This document shows, one piece after another, positions 2,568 through 28,388 of a stretch of DNA of 32,000 nt. Below the pieces are notes generated by a model. That model searched no databases and was not told the origin of the DNA. It saw only the letters and a program-made list of their open reading frames with translations. Source of the DNA: Candidatus Nanoclepta minutus (GTDB taxonomy: Archaea; Nanobdellota; Nanobdellia; Nanobdellales; Nanobdellaceae); assembly GCA_003568775.1 (NCBI GenBank), contig MWMI01000004.1:43389-75388 (forward strand), in the 5' to 3' direction. The translations under genes were made by a program, and so were the position numbers. Within the stretch, counting starts at the first letter, position 1, and every line of letters starts with the position of its first letter.

Positions 2568-2616
2568 ATGAAGAATAATCCCATTGCTGAAACGTGATGA
2601 GAGATGGGCGTGCAGA
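2568..2616 (+). ncRNA. Candidate C/D-box sRNA (2'-O-methylation guide)
   Basis: Layout: AUGAAGA (2568-2574), 12 nt ataatcccattg, CUGA (2587-2590), loop aac, GUGAUGA (2594-2600), 12 nt gagatgggcgtg, CAGA (2613-2616). This is the exact archaeal C-12-D'-3-C'-12-D geometry. The terminal D box is degenerate (CAGA). Confidence 0.45.
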
Positions 2617-8753: not shown

Positions 8754-8790
8754 AGGATTTCTTAAGTATATAAAGAATAATAATATTTAT

Positions 8791-8875
8791 GCCGCGGTGC
8801 CCGAGTGGACCAAGGGGTCTGGCTCGAGACCAGATCCCCGATAAGGGGACCGGGGTTCGAATCCCCGCCGCGGCG
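8791..8875 (+). tRNA. tRNA-Ser (anticodon CGA)
   Basis: I folded the cloverleaf by hand. The acceptor pairs GCCGCGG with CCGCGGC, and the anticodon stem pairs TCTGG with CCAGA around the loop CTCGAGA. A long variable arm pairs CCCC-GATA-GGGG, and the T arm is CGGGG-TTCGAAT-CCCCG. It is 85 nt and class II. Confidence 0.92.
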
Positions 8876-9213
8876 TAAGATTAAACCTCTCTATATTTAT
8901 CTATAAACCTTTTATAAAATTCCCATTATTCATTTGTTAACAAATAGAATTCGAATGGAGAATTAAAGAATTCTTTTATTAATATTCCGAAAACTTCTAA
9001 TTTTTTATCCCTATTTTTAAATTCTTCAGATACTATTGCGATGCCTATATTAGACTAAATAATAGTAACAGATATATAAATAAGTCAAATTATCCTTAAC
9101 TCTAACAGAGTCGATATAAATAAATGCAGCGAGATCAATAATCAAATAAACATTTACTTTTATTAATGGTTTTTGATAGCTCGAAATTATAAATACTATA
9201 CTAAATTACAATT

Positions 9214-10382: not shown

Positions 10383-11507
10383 CTAAGATAAAAATATCTC
10401 TTCAAATTTATCAACTACCTTTTTGATATCAAACAATTCCCTTGCTCTTTTAGCAACGTATTTTCTCTTTTCAAAATAACCTCTTGGATCTTCCTTCCAA
10501 AAGGTATAAATTTCTAATATTTTATTTGCAAAGGCTTCCGGATTATAACTATTTTTGATCCAACCAAAGTTCTTATCATAAATATTTAATAAATCCCTAA
10601 AGGCAACTATATTAGATCCTAAAAACGGGGAACCTGAGACTAGGGCTTCTACAACAGCTATTGGAAATCCTTCAAATCTAGAAGGAATAAAAAATAGAGA
10701 AGATTTTGATAAGATTTCTCTTTTGGTATTTTCATCTACAAATCCAAAATATTTAACGTTTTCTGGATATTTGCTTTCTAATAATCTTAGCATTTCTTCA
10801 TACTTTTTATCTCCAGAACCTGCAACATAAAACTTTATTTCTTTATTTTTATCCAAAACCTTCTTTATAGCTTCTATTAATACATCAAATCCTTTTTGTT
10901 CATGAATCCTACCCATAAACGTTAGTATAAACTCTTTATTATCTTTAGGATAAAGATATTCTTTAGAATTAACAAAATTAGGAACTAAATAAACGTTTTT
11001 AAAACCTAATTTTTCATAAAATTCCTTTTGAGCGGAATTTAAAATATGAATATATATTTTATGCTGATATTTTAACATTTTATTTTCCATTAATTTTATA
11101 ATATGAATTTTATATCTCCATTTTCTGTCATTATAATCTAAAAATGTAGTGTGATTTCCTATAATAATTCTATTTGCCTTTTTTGTATATATAGAGAGGA
11201 TGGGGTGTAAGAAATAGGAAGTAAAATTAACCAGATAAATATAATCTACATCTTTTAAAAGCATTAAGTCGCATAGACCTCTAAAAACCCTAAAGACTCC
11301 ATTAGAGAATTTATTTGATAATATATATCTAAACTTAATTATTTTTCCTAAATCTTTTGGCTTAATCCTAAACAGATCTCCATAATTACTAGAAATAACC
11401 CATACATTATACTTCCTATCAACAAGTTCGTTTCCTATCTTTATAACCCAATTCTCAGTACCTGCATATGTTTCTAGCCTAGTAAAAACAAAGAATACTA
11501 TCTTCAT
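10383..11507 (-). CDS. Glycosyltransferase, GT4 (group 1) family
   Basis: The 374-aa product has a GT-B layout and a C-terminal EX7E motif (FEGFPIAVVEALVSG). Confidence 0.85.
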   Translation of the reverse strand: MKIVFFVFTRLETYAGTENWVIKIGNELVDRKYNVWVISSNYGDLFRIKPKDLGKIIKFRYILSNKFSNGVFRVFRGLCDLMLLKDVDYIYLVNFTSYFLHPILSIYTKKANRIIIGNHTTFLDYNDRKWRYKIHIIKLMENKMLKYQHKIYIHILNSAQKEFYEKLGFKNVYLVPNFVNSKEYLYPKDNKEFILTFMGRIHEQKGFDVLIEAIKKVLDKNKEIKFYVAGSGDKKYEEMLRLLESKYPENVKYFGFVDENTKREILSKSSLFFIPSRFEGFPIAVVEALVSGSPFLGSNIVAFRDLLNIYDKNFGWIKNSYNPEAFANKILEIYTFWKEDPRGYFEKRKYVAKRARELFDIKKVVDKFEEIFLS

Positions 11508-22694: not shown

Positions 22695-23156
22695 ATGAGG
22701 GGGTTTAGTACAATAATAGCCAGTGCAATACTGTTCATTGCAGCAGCAGTTGCAGCATATATATTTGTATCTGGAGCTATGGGTAGCTTATCAAACCTTC
22801 AGGGTGCTATGATAGAAAGAGAAAAACTGATTTCTTCAAGGTTACAGTCTGTAATCGATATAGATGCTTGTTCTTATAACAACGCAACAAATATAGCATC
22901 GTTTTATGTTACTAATAGAGGTACTTATCCCCTAAACGCTTCTATGACAAAGATATTCATAAACGGTATTCTATTCAATTCTACAATAGACTTTATTCAG
23001 AAGATATATAATGATCCTGCATGGAACAGGTATGAAACTATTAGGGTTTCCGTTACTCTACCATCTGGCGTTTATCAGGTAAGGGTTGTCTCATCAGTTG
23101 GTTCGTACGATGAAAAAATAGCATATATAACCAATACTTCCTGTAGCGTTTCATGA
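22695..23156 (+). CDS. FlaF/FlaG (ArlF/ArlG)-like protein with an N-terminal TM/class III-like segment
   Basis: MRGFSTIIASAILFIAAAVAAYIFVSG resembles the MGFS... opening of archaeal FlaF. A beta-sandwich-like block follows (SFYVTNRGTYPLNASMTKIFINGILF). Confidence 0.6.
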   Translation: MRGFSTIIASAILFIAAAVAAYIFVSGAMGSLSNLQGAMIEREKLISSRLQSVIDIDACSYNNATNIASFYVTNRGTYPLNASMTKIFINGILFNSTIDFIQKIYNDPAWNRYETIRVSVTLPSGVYQVRVVSSVGSYDEKIAYITNTSCSVS

Positions 23157-23593
23157 GAGGCGATCTATCACAGATATTCGGTGCTATAACGGGCTTTATA
23201 TTAATAATTGTCGTTATTTTAATATTCTCCTACATAACTTCATATAACGTCCAGAACTTCGATAAAATTTTAGAAAAAAACTATGAATTTTATGAAAAGA
23301 GGAGTTTGGAATTAGTGGATTTTTTAAATAATTCCACAAACATATCAAACCCTCTGATAATTATAAAAAATATTGGAAAGGTTTCCTTGGATCCATCATG
23401 CTTCAGTTTATATATTGAGGGTAATAAAATCAACTTTACATATCAGATTAATGAAGTATACCATGATAACCTGCTAAACCCATCCGAAAATGCTGCCTTA
23501 TACTTTAGTTATCCGAATACAGGATGGAAAAAAGTTGTTTTAATAAGTTGTAATGGAAAAAGGTTTGAAACTTTAATATATTTCTATTCATAA
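23153..23593 (+). CDS. FlaG/FlaF-like protein with an N-terminal TM segment
   Basis: It has an MRG start, a hydrophobic helix and LIIIKNIGKVSLDPSCFSLYIEGNKINF, matching the N.G..L...I.G pattern of FlaF/G domains. Its start overlaps the upstream stop as ATGA. Confidence 0.5.
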   Translation: MRGDLSQIFGAITGFILIIVVILIFSYITSYNVQNFDKILEKNYEFYEKRSLELVDFLNNSTNISNPLIIIKNIGKVSLDPSCFSLYIEGNKINFTYQINEVYHDNLLNPSENAALYFSYPNTGWKKVVLISCNGKRFETLIYFYS

Positions 23594-24984
23594 TGAGAGG
23601 CTTTGAGGAAGTAATGTATGCAGCACTAGCTTTGATGGTTTCTGTAATAGTTACCTATATTTTTATCTCAAATACAAACTTTCCAACTTATTCCGTATCA
23701 AAACCTATTGAATCTATGAAAACATCCCTCGAACTAGTTGATTATGGAATAGTTTACCCAAACACATTAGTAATATATTTAAGACCCACTTCACCAGTAA
23801 ACATCTCAAACGTTATAATCTATATAAACAGACAAAAGGCAATAATAAAAAAGATTGGGAATACACCTGGAGATATTGTAGATCCTAACAAAGGGGATTT
23901 AATGATGGTCTCGTTGGATAACTTTCAAGGCAATAGCGTAGATATATTTGTTTCGGGATATAACCTTCAGTCTAGAAGCTTTAGCATAAACCTGGAAGGA
24001 AAGAAACCCATTACTCCTACAAATATAGCTACATACTTCTATAGAATTCCAATAACAATAAAAGAGAATTCTGGAAATAATTTAACGGATTATCAGGTTA
24101 ATGTAATAGTAAACACCCAGAACTTGATTTTACAAGGAAAAATGAGATATGATTGTGGAGATATTAGGTTTACATACGTTTATCCAAACGGAACAGAGGT
24201 TAAAATAACTTACTGGATAGAATCGGGATGTAATACTCAAAATACAAAGATTTGGGTAAAGGTTCCATCTATTTCAGCAAATGGAAATGCTACTATTTAT
24301 ATTTATTATGGGAATCCTTTTGCAACAAGTGGGAGTAATCCAAATAGCGTATTTATATACTTTGACACTTTTGATGATCTTTCAAAATGGTCAACTTATA
24401 GGGGAAGCTCATGTACCTCAATAAATATATACAACTTTAATGGTAACAATGTTGTGGGTCTTAGTGTCTCTGGGGGAACTTCAGATTCCAGAACGTGGTG
24501 TATAATATATAATCTAACTGTTTCCCTTCCCAGTTCCTTTAAAATTGACGTAGACGTTTATACAGATAATATTGTTGATACTTTACCTTACTTCAACAGC
24601 ATAACTGGTCCTTTCTATGTCTTTAGATTTGATGCAAGAGGTAGCTATTATGATCTCATTGGATATTATCCTGCGGGAGCTACCTCTACACAAGTAATTG
24701 CATCTACATCAATAGTTTCTTCAAAAAACACATGGTATCATATGCAAATTATAAGGTTCCCAAATGGTACATGGTATCTATACAAGGGAGGTGATTTATA
24801 CTCCCTAGGAACTCTCGAAGCAAGCGTTACACATACAACAACAACTTCTGGTTATTTGGGTCTTACCGGAGACGGAGCTACTGGAACAACCTACTTCGAT
24901 AATTTGATTGTCAGAAAGTATACCTCCCCAGAACCTTCTGTTAGTTTAGGAAATGAAGAAACAACTTTCTATTATCCATCCTAA
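23593..24984 (+). CDS. Pilin/FlaF-like N-terminus fused to DUF2341 and a concanavalin/LamG-like domain
   Basis: It has an MRG start and a TM helix. The DUF2341 signature is YRIPITIKENSGNNLTDYQVNV...DIRFTY...ITYWIE...KIWVKVPSISANGNATIYIYYGNP. The C-terminal beta-rich region ends in YFDNLIVRKY. Confidence 0.7.
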   Translation: MRGFEEVMYAALALMVSVIVTYIFISNTNFPTYSVSKPIESMKTSLELVDYGIVYPNTLVIYLRPTSPVNISNVIIYINRQKAIIKKIGNTPGDIVDPNKGDLMMVSLDNFQGNSVDIFVSGYNLQSRSFSINLEGKKPITPTNIATYFYRIPITIKENSGNNLTDYQVNVIVNTQNLILQGKMRYDCGDIRFTYVYPNGTEVKITYWIESGCNTQNTKIWVKVPSISANGNATIYIYYGNPFATSGSNPNSVFIYFDTFDDLSKWSTYRGSSCTSINIYNFNGNNVVGLSVSGGTSDSRTWCIIYNLTVSLPSSFKIDVDVYTDNIVDTLPYFNSITGPFYVFRFDARGSYYDLIGYYPAGATSTQVIASTSIVSSKNTWYHMQIIRFPNGTWYLYKGGDLYSLGTLEASVTHTTTTSGYLGLTGDGATGTTYFDNLIVRKYTSPEPSVSLGNEETTFYYPS

Positions 24985-25033
24985 TCAGTATGGGTAGAAT
25001 TCTTCATTGATCTGTACTCGGCAAATTCATCAT
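24985..25033 (-). ncRNA. Candidate C/D-box sRNA (downstream copy of a tandem pair)
   Basis: Read on the minus strand: (A)UGAUGA (25033-25027), 12 nt auuugccgagua, CAGA (25014-25011), loop uca, AUGAAGA (25007-25001), 12 nt auucuacccaua, CUGA (24988-24985). Confidence 0.6.
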
Positions 25034-25081
25034 CAGTGTTTTGGTCCATCATCACATATCAGATTTTTCGTCCATCTTCAT
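25033..25081 (-). ncRNA. Candidate C/D-box sRNA (upstream copy, overlapping the phosphorylase stop codon)
   Basis: Read on the minus strand: AUGAAGA (25081-25075), 12 nt uggacgaaaaau, CUGA (25062-25059), loop uau, GUGAUGA (25055-25049), 12 nt uggaccaaaaca, CUGA (25036-25033). Confidence 0.6.
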
Positions 25082-26682
25082 TCATACATCCTTCTAATAT
25101 ATTCTCTTAAGGTTCTATAAATATTGAATAGGGGACCAATAGTTTTTATAGCATTCTTACATATCCTCAAATACTCTTTATAATTATATCTATACAAATA
25201 AAATATTTGATCCAACTTTTCATAAAATTCTTTTATATCCTTTTCCTCATCATAGGGCTCATTCGGATCCATTCTATTACTTCCAAACAACCAACCATTA
25301 TATTCATCAATTATTCCCTCTATAACGCTTCCATCCCTAGAAGCTAGTACGGGAACTCCGTTCATAGAAGCCCTCATCCAAGAGGTACCGGAAGCCTCAA
25401 ACGGTGGTCTTGGAATATGCAAGAATAGATCACTTCCAGAAATTATATATTTCTCTATTTCAACACCCCTCTTTAATATCAAAGCTATTGGAACATCTAC
25501 CGTAGACATCACATCCATAATCCATTTTAAAGTATTTCTAACATATTCATCCGCTGGATGGAATGCTCCGGATAATAGGAACTGTATTTTATATTTCTTA
25601 TTGAGCTCTTCTAATTTCTCTAATCTCCATAATGGCATATGGAACCTTTTATATTCTACTAACCTCCTTCTAATAGAGAAGGTAATTCTATCCGAAGTAA
25701 AAGATCTATTTAAATAAGCTTCAGAATTTACGTAGTCCATCAACTCCTCTTTTAGTATTCTCTTTATCCTATAGAATTCTGGATCTGGAATATAATCAGC
25801 ATAGGCCAACATAGAAGGCTCTTTTTTCCATCCCTTTAAATAAATATCGAATAGATTTGCTAATTTTCTATTAATCCATCTATAATGAAGGACTCCATTT
25901 GTTATATAGTCAATCTTATATCCAAATACCTTTTCCGTAACTTTGCTATGTTTCCATGAAACTGCATTCTTCTTACCAGATAGCTCTAACAATATTTTCG
26001 TTAAATTCAACTCATTTTGGGATATCTTTTTAATTTCATCTGGTATATCATAGTATTTTTCTACCAAATCGTATGAAAAGGTATCATGACCTGCCAATAT
26101 TGAATGGGTTGTAAAAACTACCTTATCCCTTACTTCCTCCATGTTATTATACCTCTTCAACAGCTCTATCGCAAGGAAACCTCCATGCGATTCGTTAAGA
26201 TGAAACTTATCTATTTCTATTCCTAATTTGTCAAATATCCTTAGAGCACCTAATCCCAATAGAATATCCTTTACTAACTTTTCTTCCTGATTGTTTTCAA
26301 AGTATAGTTTATCCGTAAGCTTCCTCACCCAAGTAGGATTATCCGGACAGCTTGTATCGATTAAGAATAGCTTTACATTTGGCAAGGAATATCTCCAAAC
26401 CTCAAAGTAAATCTTTAGATTCTTCAGGTCTATAGAAATTTTTTCATCTTCCTTATTAAAATACTCTATGGGATCGTATTCTTCATCCTCCAAAACTATA
26501 TTATTGTTCTCTATCTTGAATCTTGCATATCCCTTCCTGCTTATCAAACATACACCATAAAATGGGACCTCGAGATCGTTTGCAGCATAAAGCATATCCC
26601 CAGCAAGTATCCCTAAACCACCGGCATACGTTGGCAGTTTCCCTATAGAAAACTCCATAGAAACATATACAATTTTCTTCAT
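25078..26682 (-). CDS. Alpha-glucan (glycogen/maltodextrin) phosphorylase family protein, short archaeal type, with PLP-Lys replaced by Arg
   Basis: The N-terminus YAGGLGILAGDMLYAANDLEVPFYGV and the C-terminal EASGTSWMRASMNG match the GT35 phosphorylase signatures. The canonical K is R. Confidence 0.75.
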   Translation of the reverse strand: MKKIVYVSMEFSIGKLPTYAGGLGILAGDMLYAANDLEVPFYGVCLISRKGYARFKIENNNIVLEDEEYDPIEYFNKEDEKISIDLKNLKIYFEVWRYSLPNVKLFLIDTSCPDNPTWVRKLTDKLYFENNQEEKLVKDILLGLGALRIFDKLGIEIDKFHLNESHGGFLAIELLKRYNNMEEVRDKVVFTTHSILAGHDTFSYDLVEKYYDIPDEIKKISQNELNLTKILLELSGKKNAVSWKHSKVTEKVFGYKIDYITNGVLHYRWINRKLANLFDIYLKGWKKEPSMLAYADYIPDPEFYRIKRILKEELMDYVNSEAYLNRSFTSDRITFSIRRRLVEYKRFHMPLWRLEKLEELNKKYKIQFLLSGAFHPADEYVRNTLKWIMDVMSTVDVPIALILKRGVEIEKYIISGSDLFLHIPRPPFEASGTSWMRASMNGVPVLASRDGSVIEGIIDEYNGWLFGSNRMDPNEPYDEEKDIKEFYEKLDQIFYLYRYNYKEYLRICKNAIKTIGPLFNIYRTLREYIRRMYE

Positions 26683-26726: not shown

Positions 26727-28388
26727 CTAATTCCTAACAATATCCTCCAAAAAGTATATATTTAACTCCTTTTTTAGGAATTCCTTAATATCGGATACTT
26801 TTATCCTTATTTGTTCCTTCGTATCCCTATATCTTATAGTCACTGTATTGTCTTCAAAGGTTCTTTCATCTATAGTAATGCAAAATGGTGTTCCAATACT
26901 ATCCTGCCTTCTATATCTTTTTCCAATACTTCCAGAATCATCATAATAAACTATAAAGCTTAACCTCAATTCCTCAAATATTTCTCTTGCTTTTTCAACA
27001 TGTTTATCTTTACTTTCCAATAGGGGGAATACTGCTACCTCTATCGGAGCTAGATATGGAGGTAACTTCAAGATTCCAGATCTCTCATCGTATAGAACCC
27101 ATAAAATTGAAAATATATTCCTATCAACTCCAAAAGACAGCTCTAGCTCTATAGGTAGAACCTTCCTATTATTTATATTTACTATAAAGTTCGTATTTTT
27201 TGAATAGATTAAATGCTTCCATAGATCATATCCAACTATTACTTCTTCCTTATCTCCAAAAATTTCTAGAATTTTCTCCCTCAATTCTCTATCCCCTATC
27301 CTTTCCAAATCTTCTCTCCTCAATTTGATAGCCCTGAAGTGAATACCACCAACCTCAATCCATCCTAAACTATCAAGGTAAACTTCTACATCAAAGTGAT
27401 ACATATTATAGAAAGCCTTCTCTTTCTCCGATAGCTCATAGAACCTAAACCTATCCTTAGGTATCCTCAATACATCTAAATAAAACTGCTGTATCTTATA
27501 CATAAAATATAGATAGAATTTTGGAAGATATCCCTCTAAATCTCTCAACTTTACTTTAATAAAATCGTTTCCCCTTTCTCTATCTCTAACTAATAGAACG
27601 TTAATTTCTTTATCCTTAACTCTTTCATAGAGTTCATCGAACTCATTTGAGACAAAAAATATCTGGAGTTCTGCCTGCTTGAATTCTCTCATCCTAATTA
27701 AAGCGTTCCTTGGAGAGATCTCGTTCCTGTAAGCCTTACCTATAATTGCTAGTCCAAGGGGGAGTTTATACCTATTTATTATTATTTCTATAGGGAAATT
27801 AACGTAAGCTCCCTGTGCAGTCTCGGGTCTTAGGAAATACCTATTTTCCTTAAACCTCTTATAGCTCTCCAGAAGCTCCTCTTTATCTATTTTTCCAGAT
27901 TTTAAATAGTCCTCTAATAAGAGGAAGAGATCCTGCTCCGGACCTATCATAGCTGGAACCATCAAGTTGAATAATCTTACCTCAGAAAGTTCGGATTTAC
28001 ATATAGGACATAACATCTTCTTCTCCCTTATTATTTCATTTATTTCCTTTATACTTAAGCCTTCCACTTTTATTTTCAATGTTTCTTCAATTAATTTATC
28101 GGCCCTAAACCTATGTCCATTCTTACATTCAGTAATAGGATCGTTAAATAGTTCCAAATGACCGGAGGCTTTGAAAACAATATCTTTCATAACCTCAGAC
28201 GGTTCTATCTCCCAGAAGTTTGGATATAACTTTAAGAAAAAGTTCCTCCAAAGGTTTTCAAACTTCAATTCCAGAATCTTTCCTAAGCTTCCATAATCAT
28301 AAAATCCTGTCTTTCCTCCATAGATTTCTTCTGAATTATAAAAGAAACCCTTTTCTTCGCAAAACTTGATAAAAGATTCTATATCCAT
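26727..28388 (-). CDS. glyS: Glycyl-tRNA synthetase (archaeal/eukaryotic alpha2 type)
   Basis: It has YGGKTGFYDYGSLG near the N-terminus, class II core motifs (FRNEISPR-like YRNEISPRNALIRMREF) and a C-terminal anticodon-binding domain. Length is 553 aa. Confidence 0.92.
   Translation of the reverse strand: MDIESFIKFCEEKGFFYNSEEIYGGKTGFYDYGSLGKILELKFENLWRNFFLKLYPNFWEIEPSEVMKDIVFKASGHLELFNDPITECKNGHRFRADKLIEETLKIKVEGLSIKEINEIIREKKMLCPICKSELSEVRLFNLMVPAMIGPEQDLFLLLEDYLKSGKIDKEELLESYKRFKENRYFLRPETAQGAYVNFPIEIIINRYKLPLGLAIIGKAYRNEISPRNALIRMREFKQAELQIFFVSNEFDELYERVKDKEINVLLVRDRERGNDFIKVKLRDLEGYLPKFYLYFMYKIQQFYLDVLRIPKDRFRFYELSEKEKAFYNMYHFDVEVYLDSLGWIEVGGIHFRAIKLRREDLERIGDRELREKILEIFGDKEEVIVGYDLWKHLIYSKNTNFIVNINNRKVLPIELELSFGVDRNIFSILWVLYDERSGILKLPPYLAPIEVAVFPLLESKDKHVEKAREIFEELRLSFIVYYDDSGSIGKRYRRQDSIGTPFCITIDERTFEDNTVTIRYRDTKEQIRIKVSDIKEFLKKELNIYFLEDIVRN

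What the first reader, a model, noticed from the sequence alone, without database searches (positions are those of the whole stretch)
24985..25081. Two abutting C/D-box sRNA candidates fill the entire convergent intergenic gap
**Pattern.** On the minus strand, the 93-nt gap between the DUF2341 gene stop (24984) and the phosphorylase stop (25078-25080), plus that stop codon, parses completely as four units of [7-nt C-like box][exactly 12 nt][4-nt D-like box]. The linkers between units are 3, 0 and 3 nt:
- AUGAAGA-12-CUGA-uau-GUGAUGA-12-CUGA
- UGAUGA-12-CAGA-uca-AUGAAGA-12-CUGA

This is the canonical archaeal C-guide-D'-loop-C'-guide-D architecture, twice, at about 49 nt each.

**Further details.**
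- The first C box overlaps the phosphorylase stop codon, which suggests processing from its 3' UTR.
- The two guides of the upstream sRNA are near-duplicates (uggacgaaaaau and uggaccaaaaca; the two half-units match at 18 of 23 positions). This implies origin by internal duplication.
- The guide auuugccgagua is complementary to UACUCGGCAAAU. From memory, this resembles the conserved 23S rRNA domain IV stretch ...GGAACUCGGCAAAU....
Basis: partly seen in the sequence, partly recalled or inferred. Interest (0 to 1): 0.65.

Follow-up and report, generated by a model that had tools for sequence, protein, structure and literature searches.

The report
Two back-to-back methylation guide RNAs
The gap after a sugar-phosphorylase gene in this tiny hot-spring archaeon holds two adjoining box C/D guide RNA genes, a well-known kind of small RNA that directs methylation of ribosomal and transfer RNA, so the finding is correct but ordinary.

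Summary
On the minus strand, 25081-24985 reads as two 48-nt archaeal box C/D sRNA genes with no spacer between them.

- **Independent model:** a profile built only from RNA-seq-verified Nanoarchaeum equitans sRNAs ranks them first and second in the window (E about 3e-5, exact boundaries).
- **Organism:** a member of Nanopusillaceae (Nanoarchaeota).
- **Downstream sRNA (sRNA2):** it sits at the phosphorylase stop codon in seven related lineages. It is 85% conserved, against 56% for third codon positions and 26% just after the D box.
- **Its D' guide:** it pairs with 23S rRNA at the C aligned to E. coli position 1672. N. equitans sRNA21 (Cm1790) and guides of at least four other archaea target the same site.
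- **Upstream sRNA (sRNA1):** it occurs only in the window's own clade. Its two near-duplicate guides most likely direct methylation of wobble U34 in tRNA-Glu(UUC) and tRNA-Gln(UUG). This rests on analogy with Pyrobaculum sR51 and sR27 and is not verified on this organism's tRNAs.
- **Fourth guide:** its target is unresolved.

A stop codon inside the C box and clusters of sRNA genes are both documented for archaea. These are new members of a known kind, of modest interest.

The parts
25033..25081 (-). sRNA1 (upstream C/D box sRNA). C box aUGAAGA 25081-25075 contains the phosphorylase stop codon. D' guide 25074-25063, D' box CUGA 25062-25059, loop uau 25058-25056, C' box GUGAUGA 25055-25049, D guide 25048-25037, D box CUGA 25036-25033.
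   Evidence: 19.5 bits, E = 2.5e-5. Present in the window, L002 and L003/L004 only.
24985..25032 (-). sRNA2 (downstream C/D box sRNA). C box UGAUGA 25032-25027; its 5' purine is A25033, the last base of sRNA1's D box. D' guide 25026-25015, D' box CAGA 25014-25011, loop uca 25010-25008, C' box AUGAAGA 25007-25001, D guide 25000-24989, D box CUGA 24988-24985.
   Evidence: 19.3 bits, E = 3e-5. Conserved in seven lineages.
25015..25026 (-). Guide 3 (sRNA2 D' guide, AUUUGCCGAGUA). It pairs with 23S rRNA ...AACUCGGCAAAU.... The N+5 nucleotide is the C aligned to E. coli 23S position 1672, equivalent to N. equitans Cm1790.
24989..25000 (-). Guide 4 (sRNA2 D guide, AUUCUACCCAUA). The predicted target is 5'-AUGGGUAGRR-3'. 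Its location is unresolved; 16S near E. coli position 690 is the best candidate.
25063..25074 (-). Guide 1 (sRNA1 D' guide, UGGACGAAAAAU). The inferred target is the tRNA-Glu(UUC) anticodon arm, with the methyl on U34.
   Evidence: This is an inference by analogy.
25037..25048 (-). Guide 2 (sRNA1 D guide, UGGACCAAAACA). The inferred target is the tRNA-Gln(UUG) anticodon arm, with the methyl on U34. It has the same core and register as the N. equitans sRNA1 D' guide and the P. calidifontis sR27 D guide.
25078..26682 (-). Alpha-glucan phosphorylase gene. Its TGA stop (25078-25080) lies in the C box, and it is the probable source of the precursor transcript.
23593..24984 (+). Convergent DUF2341 gene. 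Its stop codon abuts the D box of sRNA2. It is not part of the RNA unit; the neighbour at this position differs in relatives.

Best explanation
The 97 nt are two adjoining genes for archaeal box C/D sRNAs, each about 48 nt. These are the guide RNAs of the L7Ae-Nop5-fibrillarin 2'-O-methyltransferase.

**Expression.** They are most likely transcribed as the 3' tail of the phosphorylase mRNA, whose UGA stop lies inside the first C box. They would then be released when the proteins assemble on the C/D and C'/D' kink-turns and nucleases remove the unprotected RNA. This step is inferred from the published archaeal model.

**sRNA2.** This is an old resident of the position in Nanopusillaceae. Its D' guide pairs with 23S rRNA and places a methyl on the C aligned to E. 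coli position 1672 (helix 61 region, N. equitans Cm1790). The pairing is shown; the methylation is inferred. The target of its D guide is constrained (AUGGGUAGRR) but has not been located.

**sRNA1.** This is a precise 48-nt cassette added in the window's clade between the stop codon and sRNA2. Its two similar guides most likely methylate wobble U34 of tRNA-Glu(UUC) and tRNA-Gln(UUG). This is inferred by analogy.
For: **Architecture and statistics.**. The independent N. equitans profile gives E about 3e-5 for both, with exact ends. All 22 sub-threshold Rfam hits are C/D-box families on the minus strand, in two registers.

**Conservation.** An sRNA2 homologue lies at the phosphorylase stop in L002, L003, L005 (Nanobdella aerobiophila), L006, L007 and L009, while the downstream gene varies between DUF2341, FEN1 and tRNA-His. 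Mean identity is 85%, against 72% for the coding DNA, 56% for third codon positions and 26% for the 30 nt after the D box. Box changes are confined to UGA(U/A)GA and C(U/A)GA, and guide changes lie mostly at guide ends.

**Guide 3 target.**
- The N. equitans sRNA21 D' guide GTTTGCCGATTA is assigned to 23S Cm1790, AAATCmGGCAAATTG.
- The site is annotated for guides M5, P38, N21, T51, I114 and I169.
- P. calidifontis sR38 carries ATTTGCCGAGTG.
- 23S genes 81-84% identical to N. equitans read AACTCGGCAAAT, giving 11 Watson-Crick pairs.
- Guide position 3 is G where the rRNA has C, and U in N. equitans where the rRNA has A.

**Guides 1 and 2.**
- Pyrobaculum sR27 targets U34 of tRNA-Gln.
- Its D guide GGATCCAAAGCG has CCAAA in the same register as guide 2 and as the N. 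equitans sRNA1 D' guide.
- The sR51 D guide reads the tRNA-Glu(CUC) loop in the same register.
- The L003 form of guide 1 pairs with 10 of 12 nt of the relatives' tRNA-Glu(CUC) arm. The failures are at C34 and A37 only.
- No rRNA site for guides 1 or 2 exists in the N. equitans 16S, the 5' 1.9 kb of its 23S, or L294/L296.

**Arrangement.** Published as common in archaea.
Against: - There are no expression data. Neither the RNAs nor the methylations were observed.
- No curated Rfam family reaches its gathering score.
- I could not obtain the 16S, tRNA-Glu(UUC) or tRNA-Gln(UUG) of any Nanopusillaceae. The targets of three of the four guides are therefore unverified.
- The relatives' tRNA-Glu(CUC) has A37, whereas guide 1 expects G37.
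- L294 and L296 are nanoarchaeal-like by 23S identity only. They are not shown to come from the same lineages as the sRNA loci.
- The zero-nucleotide junction leaves no room for flanks. Release of two separate RNAs from one precursor would need an exact cut.
- One relative (L008) lacks the sRNA at this position.
Confidence: 0.85

Rival explanations
1. The four units make one stable four-guide RNA of about 97 nt (a double C/D sRNA carrying two RNPs) rather than two separate sRNAs. The reason would be that the D box of the first unit and the C box of the second share a base and leave no linker to cut.
For: The zero-nt junction CUGA|UGAUGA (CAGA|UGAUGA in L003) is kept in all three lineages that have both units. 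In the published maturation model, termini are trimmed back to the protein-protected body. That model alone would not separate two abutting bodies.
Against: - sRNA2 exists alone in four lineages, so it is a self-sufficient unit.
- Mature N. equitans sRNAs can start exactly at the C box or end exactly at the D box, as in sRNA5, 15, 16, 22 and 23. Two flank-less products are therefore possible.
- Each unit scores as a full-length single sRNA.
Confidence: 0.12
2. sRNA1 is a recently inserted copy whose guides are orphans with no methylation target. It might act at most as an RNA chaperone or as an L7Ae-binding element in the phosphorylase 3' UTR.
For: - In Pyrobaculum, 61% of guides that overlap the 3' end of a gene have no predicted target.
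- No rRNA target was found for guides 1 or 2.
- The N. equitans sRNA1 D' guide had no Plexy target.
- L7Ae binding to mRNA k-turns has been reported (title of PMC5539422).
Against: - The guide cores GGACGAAAA and TGGACCAAAAC are kept between the window and L003, whose phosphorylases are 73% identical.
- The guide-2 core TGGACCAAA is shared in the same register with N. equitans, a different family.
- Both guides read as anticodon loops, with U33 and a purine at 37, in the N+5 = 34 register used by known tRNA guides.
Confidence: 0.25
3. The box-like motifs are chance products of AT-rich intergenic DNA, or they are only a transcription-termination or 3'-UTR signal. No guide RNA is made.
For: No curated Rfam family reaches its threshold. 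UGA-rich motifs arise easily next to a UGA stop codon.
Against: - 0 of 200 random windows contain even one full pattern.
- E is about 3e-5 with an independent profile.
- Conservation is 85% and stops at the D box.
- Guide 3 is exactly complementary to a known, phylogenetically conserved methylation site.
Confidence: 0.02

Closest known systems
Nanoarchaeum equitans C/D box sRNA21 (Randau 2012, PMC3491384)
   Same: It has the same compact 48-nt architecture and the same box variants (AUGAAGA, CAGA). Its D' guide GUUUGCCGAUUA is in the same register and points to the same 23S nucleotide (Cm1790) as the window's AUUUGCCGAGUA.
   Different: - Its second guide (AACCAGGCGCUG) is unrelated.
- It lies in another genomic context and is reported to have its own promoter.
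- Guide position 3 differs in step with the rRNA: U with A in N. equitans, G with C here.
P. calidifontis sR38, T. tenax sR151 and other guides on the same 23S site (Dennis et al. 2015, PMC4644070)
   Same: Their guides ATTTGCCGAGTG and GTTTTGCCGAGTG are nearly identical to guide 3. The site is annotated for sRNAs of at least five of the seven species.
   Different: In those species it is the D guide rather than the D' guide. The partner guides differ, and the organisms belong to another phylum.
Pyrobaculum sR27 (tRNA-Gln U34) and sR51 (tRNA-Glu, listed as C24, probably C34) (Lui et al. 2018, PMC6009581)
   Same: The guide core pairs with nt 33-37 of the anticodon loop in the same register. 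The core is CCAAA for Gln(UUG) and CGAGA for Glu(CUC); here it is CCAAA and CGAAA.
   Different: In Pyrobaculum the two functions sit on two separate sRNAs and the Glu target is the CUC isoacceptor. Here both guides would sit on one sRNA and the Glu target would be UUC. The assignment here is not verified.
N. equitans sRNA1
   Same: Its D' guide UGGACCAAAUUA shares 9 nt with guide 2, in the same register relative to the box.
   Different: There it is the D' guide, partnered with a 23S-504 guide. No target had been predicted for it.
Archaeal C/D sRNA genes that overlap the 3' end of an ORF, and clusters of two or three sRNA genes (Tripp et al. 2017 as reviewed in PMC7994747)
   Same: The stop codon lies inside the C box, there is no promoter of its own, and transcription is probably polycistronic.
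   Different: Here the two genes share a base, with zero spacer. Whether such exact abutment is described elsewhere I could not check, because Tripp et al. 2017 is not in the library.

Membership tests
Archaeal box C/D sRNA (2'-O-methylation guide) | A terminal C box (RUGAUGA-like) and a terminal D box (CUGA) | tested here: met
   sRNA1 has aUGAAGA ... CUGA and sRNA2 has (a)UGAUGA ... CUGA. The UGAAGA and CAGA variants are frequent in verified N. equitans sRNAs.
Archaeal box C/D sRNA (2'-O-methylation guide) | Internal D' and C' boxes separated by a short loop | tested here: met
   CUGA-uau-GUGAUGA and CAGA-uca-AUGAAGA. N. equitans sRNAs have the same 3-nt loop plus purine.
Archaeal box C/D sRNA (2'-O-methylation guide) | Guide spacers of about 12 nt between the boxes | tested here: met
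   All four spacers are exactly 12 nt. This is the modal 12/4/12 layout of N. equitans sRNAs.
Archaeal box C/D sRNA (2'-O-methylation guide) | At least one guide complementary to rRNA or tRNA, with a Watson-Crick pair at N+5 | tested here: met
   Guide 3 forms 11 Watson-Crick pairs with the 23S of L294 and L296, with G:C at N+5. It is the same site as N. equitans Cm1790.
Archaeal box C/D sRNA (2'-O-methylation guide) | Targets for the other three guides | tested here: inconclusive
   Guides 1 and 2 have no rRNA site, and their tRNA assignment rests on analogy. For guide 4 there are several GGGUAGG sites but none is verified.
Archaeal box C/D sRNA (2'-O-methylation guide) | Boxes, spacing and guide cores conserved in related genomes | tested here: met
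   Seven lineages for sRNA2 and three for sRNA1.
Archaeal box C/D sRNA (2'-O-methylation guide) | A stable RNA of about 50 nt bound by L7Ae, Nop5 and fibrillarin, with a kink-turn fold | not testable with these tools
   No transcriptome or protein-binding data are available. The tandem G.A dinucleotides needed for a k-turn are present in the sequence.
Curated Rfam C/D families (sR14, sR2, sR47 and others) | A score at or above the family's gathering threshold | tested here: not met
   The best scores are 23.9 bits against 38 (sR14) and 20.1 against 40 (sR47). The RNAs resemble these families through the boxes only and belong to none of them.
Orthologue of N. equitans sRNA21 | Both guides shared | tested here: not met
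   Only the D' guide is shared; the D guides are unrelated. It is a functional equivalent for one site, not a full orthologue.
TIGR-Tas tandem guide arrays (considered because of the four-unit periodicity) | An adjacent Tas protein with a Nop domain | tested here: not met
   The neighbouring genes are phosphorylase, prolyl-tRNA synthetase type, DUF2341 and archaellin. None has a Nop domain. The boxes are canonical C/D boxes and guide 3 matches rRNA.

The most novel reading that the evidence does not exclude
The spacer-less pair is not cut apart. It works as a single four-guide RNA of about 97 nt that carries two methylation RNPs side by side. One half would serve the ribosome (23S) and the other the wobble U34 of tRNA-Glu(UUC) and tRNA-Gln(UUG). 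It would have been created when a flank-less 48-nt sRNA cassette was inserted by box microhomology.
Probability: 0.12. Interest if true: 0.55.

Novelty: new member of a known kind. Interest (0 to 1): 0.3.

Why it matters
**Annotation.** It adds two unannotated guide RNA genes in this window, plus a third next to the 5S gene, to a family (Nanopusillaceae) for which no paper in the searched library describes C/D sRNAs.

**Conservation of a methylation site.** A 23S methylation site known from N. equitans and several Crenarchaeota and Euryarchaeota is kept in these reduced-genome symbionts.

**Evolution of sRNA genes.** The locus gives a clean example of how such genes move. One sRNA stays glued to the stop codon of a metabolic gene across a family. 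A second, exactly 48-nt cassette was later slotted in between, and the stop codon remained inside a C box.

**If the tRNA assignment holds.** One small RNA would look after the wobble base of two related tRNAs.

None of this changes the current view of C/D sRNAs.

Tried and rejected
1. **Genome scan for neighbouring 23S targets.** I tested whether the guide-4 target lies 20-50 nt upstream of the guide-3 target in 23S. The pattern ATGGGTARN{20,50}CTCGGCAAATN{3,12}GTAACTTCGG gave 44 hits, all bacterial 23S. The test was also uninformative for Nanoarchaeota, because N. equitans has GUAUCUUCGGUAG there.
2. **Metagenome scan with the N. equitans-type motif.** The best archaeal loci are only about 73% identical to the N. 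equitans 23S, so no Nanopusillaceae rRNA was recovered.
3. **Spurious-ORF route to rRNA contigs.** It worked for 23S (loci L294-L296). It found nothing for 16S.
4. **tRNAs in the DNA I hold.** Window and loci together (over 150 kb) contain Ser, Ala, Glu-CUC, His, Leu and Gly, but no tRNA-Gln(UUG) or tRNA-Glu(UUC).
5. **Literature full-text search for the target strings and for N. equitans tRNA half sequences.** Nothing usable.
6. **Scan of all Nanopusillaceae DNA in hand for guide complements.** It found only each gene's own opposite strand and chance-level near-matches in coding regions.
7. **23S sites with GGGUAGG as the guide-4 target.** No acceptable pairing in L294 or L296.
8. **TIGR-type array.** Rejected (see the membership test).
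9. **Own promoter.** There is no box A (TTTAAA) at about -26 of the first C box. This comes from reading against the criterion. The promoter tool covers only bacterial sigma-70 sites, so I did not use it.

Full report
**1. The observation.** The minus strand from 25081 to 24985 reads aUGAAGA-uggacgaaaaau-CUGA-uau-GUGAUGA-uggaccaaaaca-CUGA|UGAUGA-auuugccgagua-CAGA-uca-AUGAAGA-auucuacccaua-CUGA. The flanking ORFs are 23593..24984 (+; DUF2341) and 25078..26682 (-; alpha-glucan phosphorylase). The gap is therefore 93 nt. The TGA stop at 25078-25080 lies inside the first C box, and the last D box abuts the stop codon of the convergent gene.

**2. Not chance.**
- A regular expression for the full C-12-D'-loop-C'-12-D layout finds three places in the window: these two and one at 2569-2616 (+). 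It finds none in 200 Markov-1 random windows.
- Half-units occur 7 times against 0.25 expected.
- Rfam has no match at gathering score. At a permissive threshold, all 22 hits in the gap are C/D-box families on the minus strand, in two registers that coincide with the two units.
I left out the two whose guides resemble the window's.
- Scanning the whole window with filters off, the two best hits are 25080-25033 (19.5 bits, E = 2.5e-5) and 25032-24985 (19.3 bits, E = 3e-5). Both are full length with exactly the predicted ends. The third locus comes next.
- The box variants UGAAGA and CAGA and the 48-nt layout are the modal form in N. equitans.

**3. Organism and relatives.** The phosphorylase is 73% identical to proteins of Nanopusillaceae MAGs and 61% identical to that of Nanobdella aerobiophila. 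The window has about 32% G+C. I fetched the same locus from graded relatives.
- An sRNA2 homologue lies at the phosphorylase stop codon, with the stop inside its own C box, in N. aerobiophila (L005), L006, L007 and L009.
- The window, L002 and L003/L004 have sRNA1 as well, between the stop codon and sRNA2.
- L008 has neither.
- The downstream neighbour differs between lineages: DUF2341, FEN1, or a tRNA-His on the other strand. The RNA therefore travels with the phosphorylase 3' end.
- Across seven lineages, sRNA2 is 85% identical on average. The phosphorylase coding DNA is 72% identical, third codon positions 56%, and the 30 nt after the D box 26%.
- 10 of 12 C-box positions and 6 of 8 D-box positions never vary, and the variable ones are the tolerated UGA(U/A)GA and C(U/A)GA positions. 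Guide changes lie mostly at the guide ends.

**4. Guide 3 (sRNA2 D' guide).**
- The N. equitans sRNA21 D' guide GTTTGCCGATTA was assigned to 23S Cm1790, AAATCmGGCAAATTG.
- In the seven-species 23S alignment of Dennis et al. 2015, this site carries the labels M5, P38, N21, T51, I114 and I169. N. equitans reads GGGAAAUCGGCAAAU where most archaea read GGGAACUCGGCAAAU.
- P. calidifontis sR38 (ATTTGCCGAGTG) and T. tenax sR151 (GTTTTGCCGAGTG) carry almost the same guide.
- I recovered nanoarchaeal-like 23S genes through spurious ORFs called on their antisense strand. L296 is 84% identical to N. equitans and L294 is 81% identical.
- Both read cgagggAACTCGGCAAAT, which gives 11 Watson-Crick pairs with the window's guide and G:C at N+5.
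- Guide position 3 is G in all seven lineages, matching rRNA C. It is U in N. equitans, matching rRNA A.
- The methylated C aligns with E. coli 23S position 1672. This lies in the helix 61 region named as a methylation hotspot.

**5. Guides 1 and 2 (sRNA1).**
- Neither has a site in the N. equitans 16S, the 5' 1.9 kb of its 23S, or L294/L296.
- Their predicted targets, A-UUUU-UUC-G-UCCA and UG-UU-UUG-G-UCCA, have the form of anticodon loops: U33, the anticodon, then a purine at 37. The N+5 nucleotide falls on position 34.
- The only core difference between the two guides, G versus C at position 7, corresponds to C36 of UUC (Glu) versus G36 of UUG (Gln).
- Lui et al. 2018 report that a third of Pyrobaculum sRNAs target tRNAs, including sR27 on U34 of tRNA-Gln and sR51 on tRNA-Glu.
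- The P. calidifontis sR27 D guide GGATCCAAAGCG has CCAAA in exactly the register of guide 2 and of the N. equitans sRNA1 D' guide TGGACCAAATTA. The sR51 D guide reads U33-C34-U35-C36-G37.
- Neither tRNA is in the DNA I hold. The tRNA-Glu(CUC) genes of L008 and L009 have the arm GGGGG-UUCUCAU-CCCCC. The L003 form of guide 1 pairs with 10 of 12 of its positions and fails only at C34 (the isoacceptor difference) and A37.
- I rate this assignment at roughly even odds or a little better. It also offers another reason for the near-duplicate guides: similar targets, not only internal duplication.

**6. Guide 4.**
- Within its core (positions 3-10 from the D box), the differences among the seven lineages are all transitions. 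They are compatible with a target 5'-AUGGGUAGRR-3' through G.U pairs.
- T. tenax sR128 and P. calidifontis sR20 share CTACCCA, one nucleotide out of register.
- P20, T28 and S19 are annotated on 16S GGGGUAGGGGCGAAAUCC near E. coli position 690.
- N. equitans reads GGGGGAGCGG there, and other GGGUAGG sites exist.
- I could not obtain a Nanopusillaceae 16S, so this target is unresolved.

**7. How it most likely works.**
- No box A element lies at about -26 of the first C box (reading; criterion).
- The published picture is that about 25% of archaeal C/D genes carry the upstream gene's stop codon, and in almost half of those cases it lies in the C box. [quoted passage not shown] Maturation needs only the box motifs in a transcribed context.
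- Co-transcription with the phosphorylase mRNA, followed by RNP assembly and trimming, is therefore the best-supported mechanism. It is inferred, not shown.
- The zero-nucleotide junction is the one unusual feature. Flank-less mature sRNAs do exist in N. equitans. A single four-guide RNA of about 97 nt is not excluded.
- sRNA1 is a precise 48-nt unit running from C box to D box. It was inserted ahead of sRNA2's C box in such a way that a C box still holds the stop codon. This fits the reported mobility of these genes; the insertion mechanism is inference.

**8. Verdict.** They are new, unannotated members of a well-known RNA class, in a documented type of genomic arrangement. Interest is modest.

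Noticed in passing
window 2569-2616 (+): A third C/D box sRNA gene: UGAAGA-AUAAUCCCAUUG-CUGA-aacg-UGAUGA-GAGAUGGGCGUG-CAGA. It ends 35 nt before the 5S rRNA gene (2651-2765), and a TTTATAAG element directly after its D box lies about 27-34 nt upstream of the 5S start. Its D guide is in the same register as the N. equitans sRNA5 D' guide (16S-28). Its D' guide best matches the 16S sequence GAACGGGAUUAG.
   Followed up: partly
window 10906-10917 (- strand), inside ORF 10383..11507 (-): The sense strand of a GT4 glycosyltransferase mRNA contains UAUGGGUAGGAU. This pairs with guide 4 at all 12 positions (11 Watson-Crick pairs and one G.U). It could be chance or an mRNA interaction.
   Followed up: partly
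window 23075-23096 (-): An isolated half-unit, TGATGA-12-CTGA, lies antisense to the archaellin ORF 22695..23156. The N. equitans profile gives it only 3.8 bits, so it is probably chance.
   Followed up: partly
window 8790-8876 (+), tRNA-Ser(CGA): The D-loop region GAGUGGACCAAGG has the same-sense 8-mer UGGACCAA as guide 2. Being the same sense, it cannot be a target. The meaning, if any, is unknown.
   Followed up: no
L009 9918-10051: In this relative, a tRNA-His gene on the opposite strand begins only about 14 nt after the D box of the single sRNA. The sRNA is wedged between the phosphorylase stop codon and a convergent tRNA.
   Followed up: no
L008 6998-7186: This relative (phosphorylase 64% identical) has a TAA stop, no C/D boxes after the gene and a different neighbour (phosphoglycerate mutase type). 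The sRNA was lost or moved in this lineage.
   Followed up: no
L294 1-3727 (-): The 23S gene spans 3727 nt for 2942 model positions. This suggests about 780 nt of extra sequence, such as an intron or expansion, in this nanoarchaeal-like 23S.
   Followed up: no
window 26727-28388 (-) compared with L005, L006 and L007: The class II aminoacyl-tRNA synthetase upstream of the phosphorylase is 553-554 aa in the window's clade. It is 645-647 aa in N. aerobiophila and its nearer relatives.
   Followed up: no
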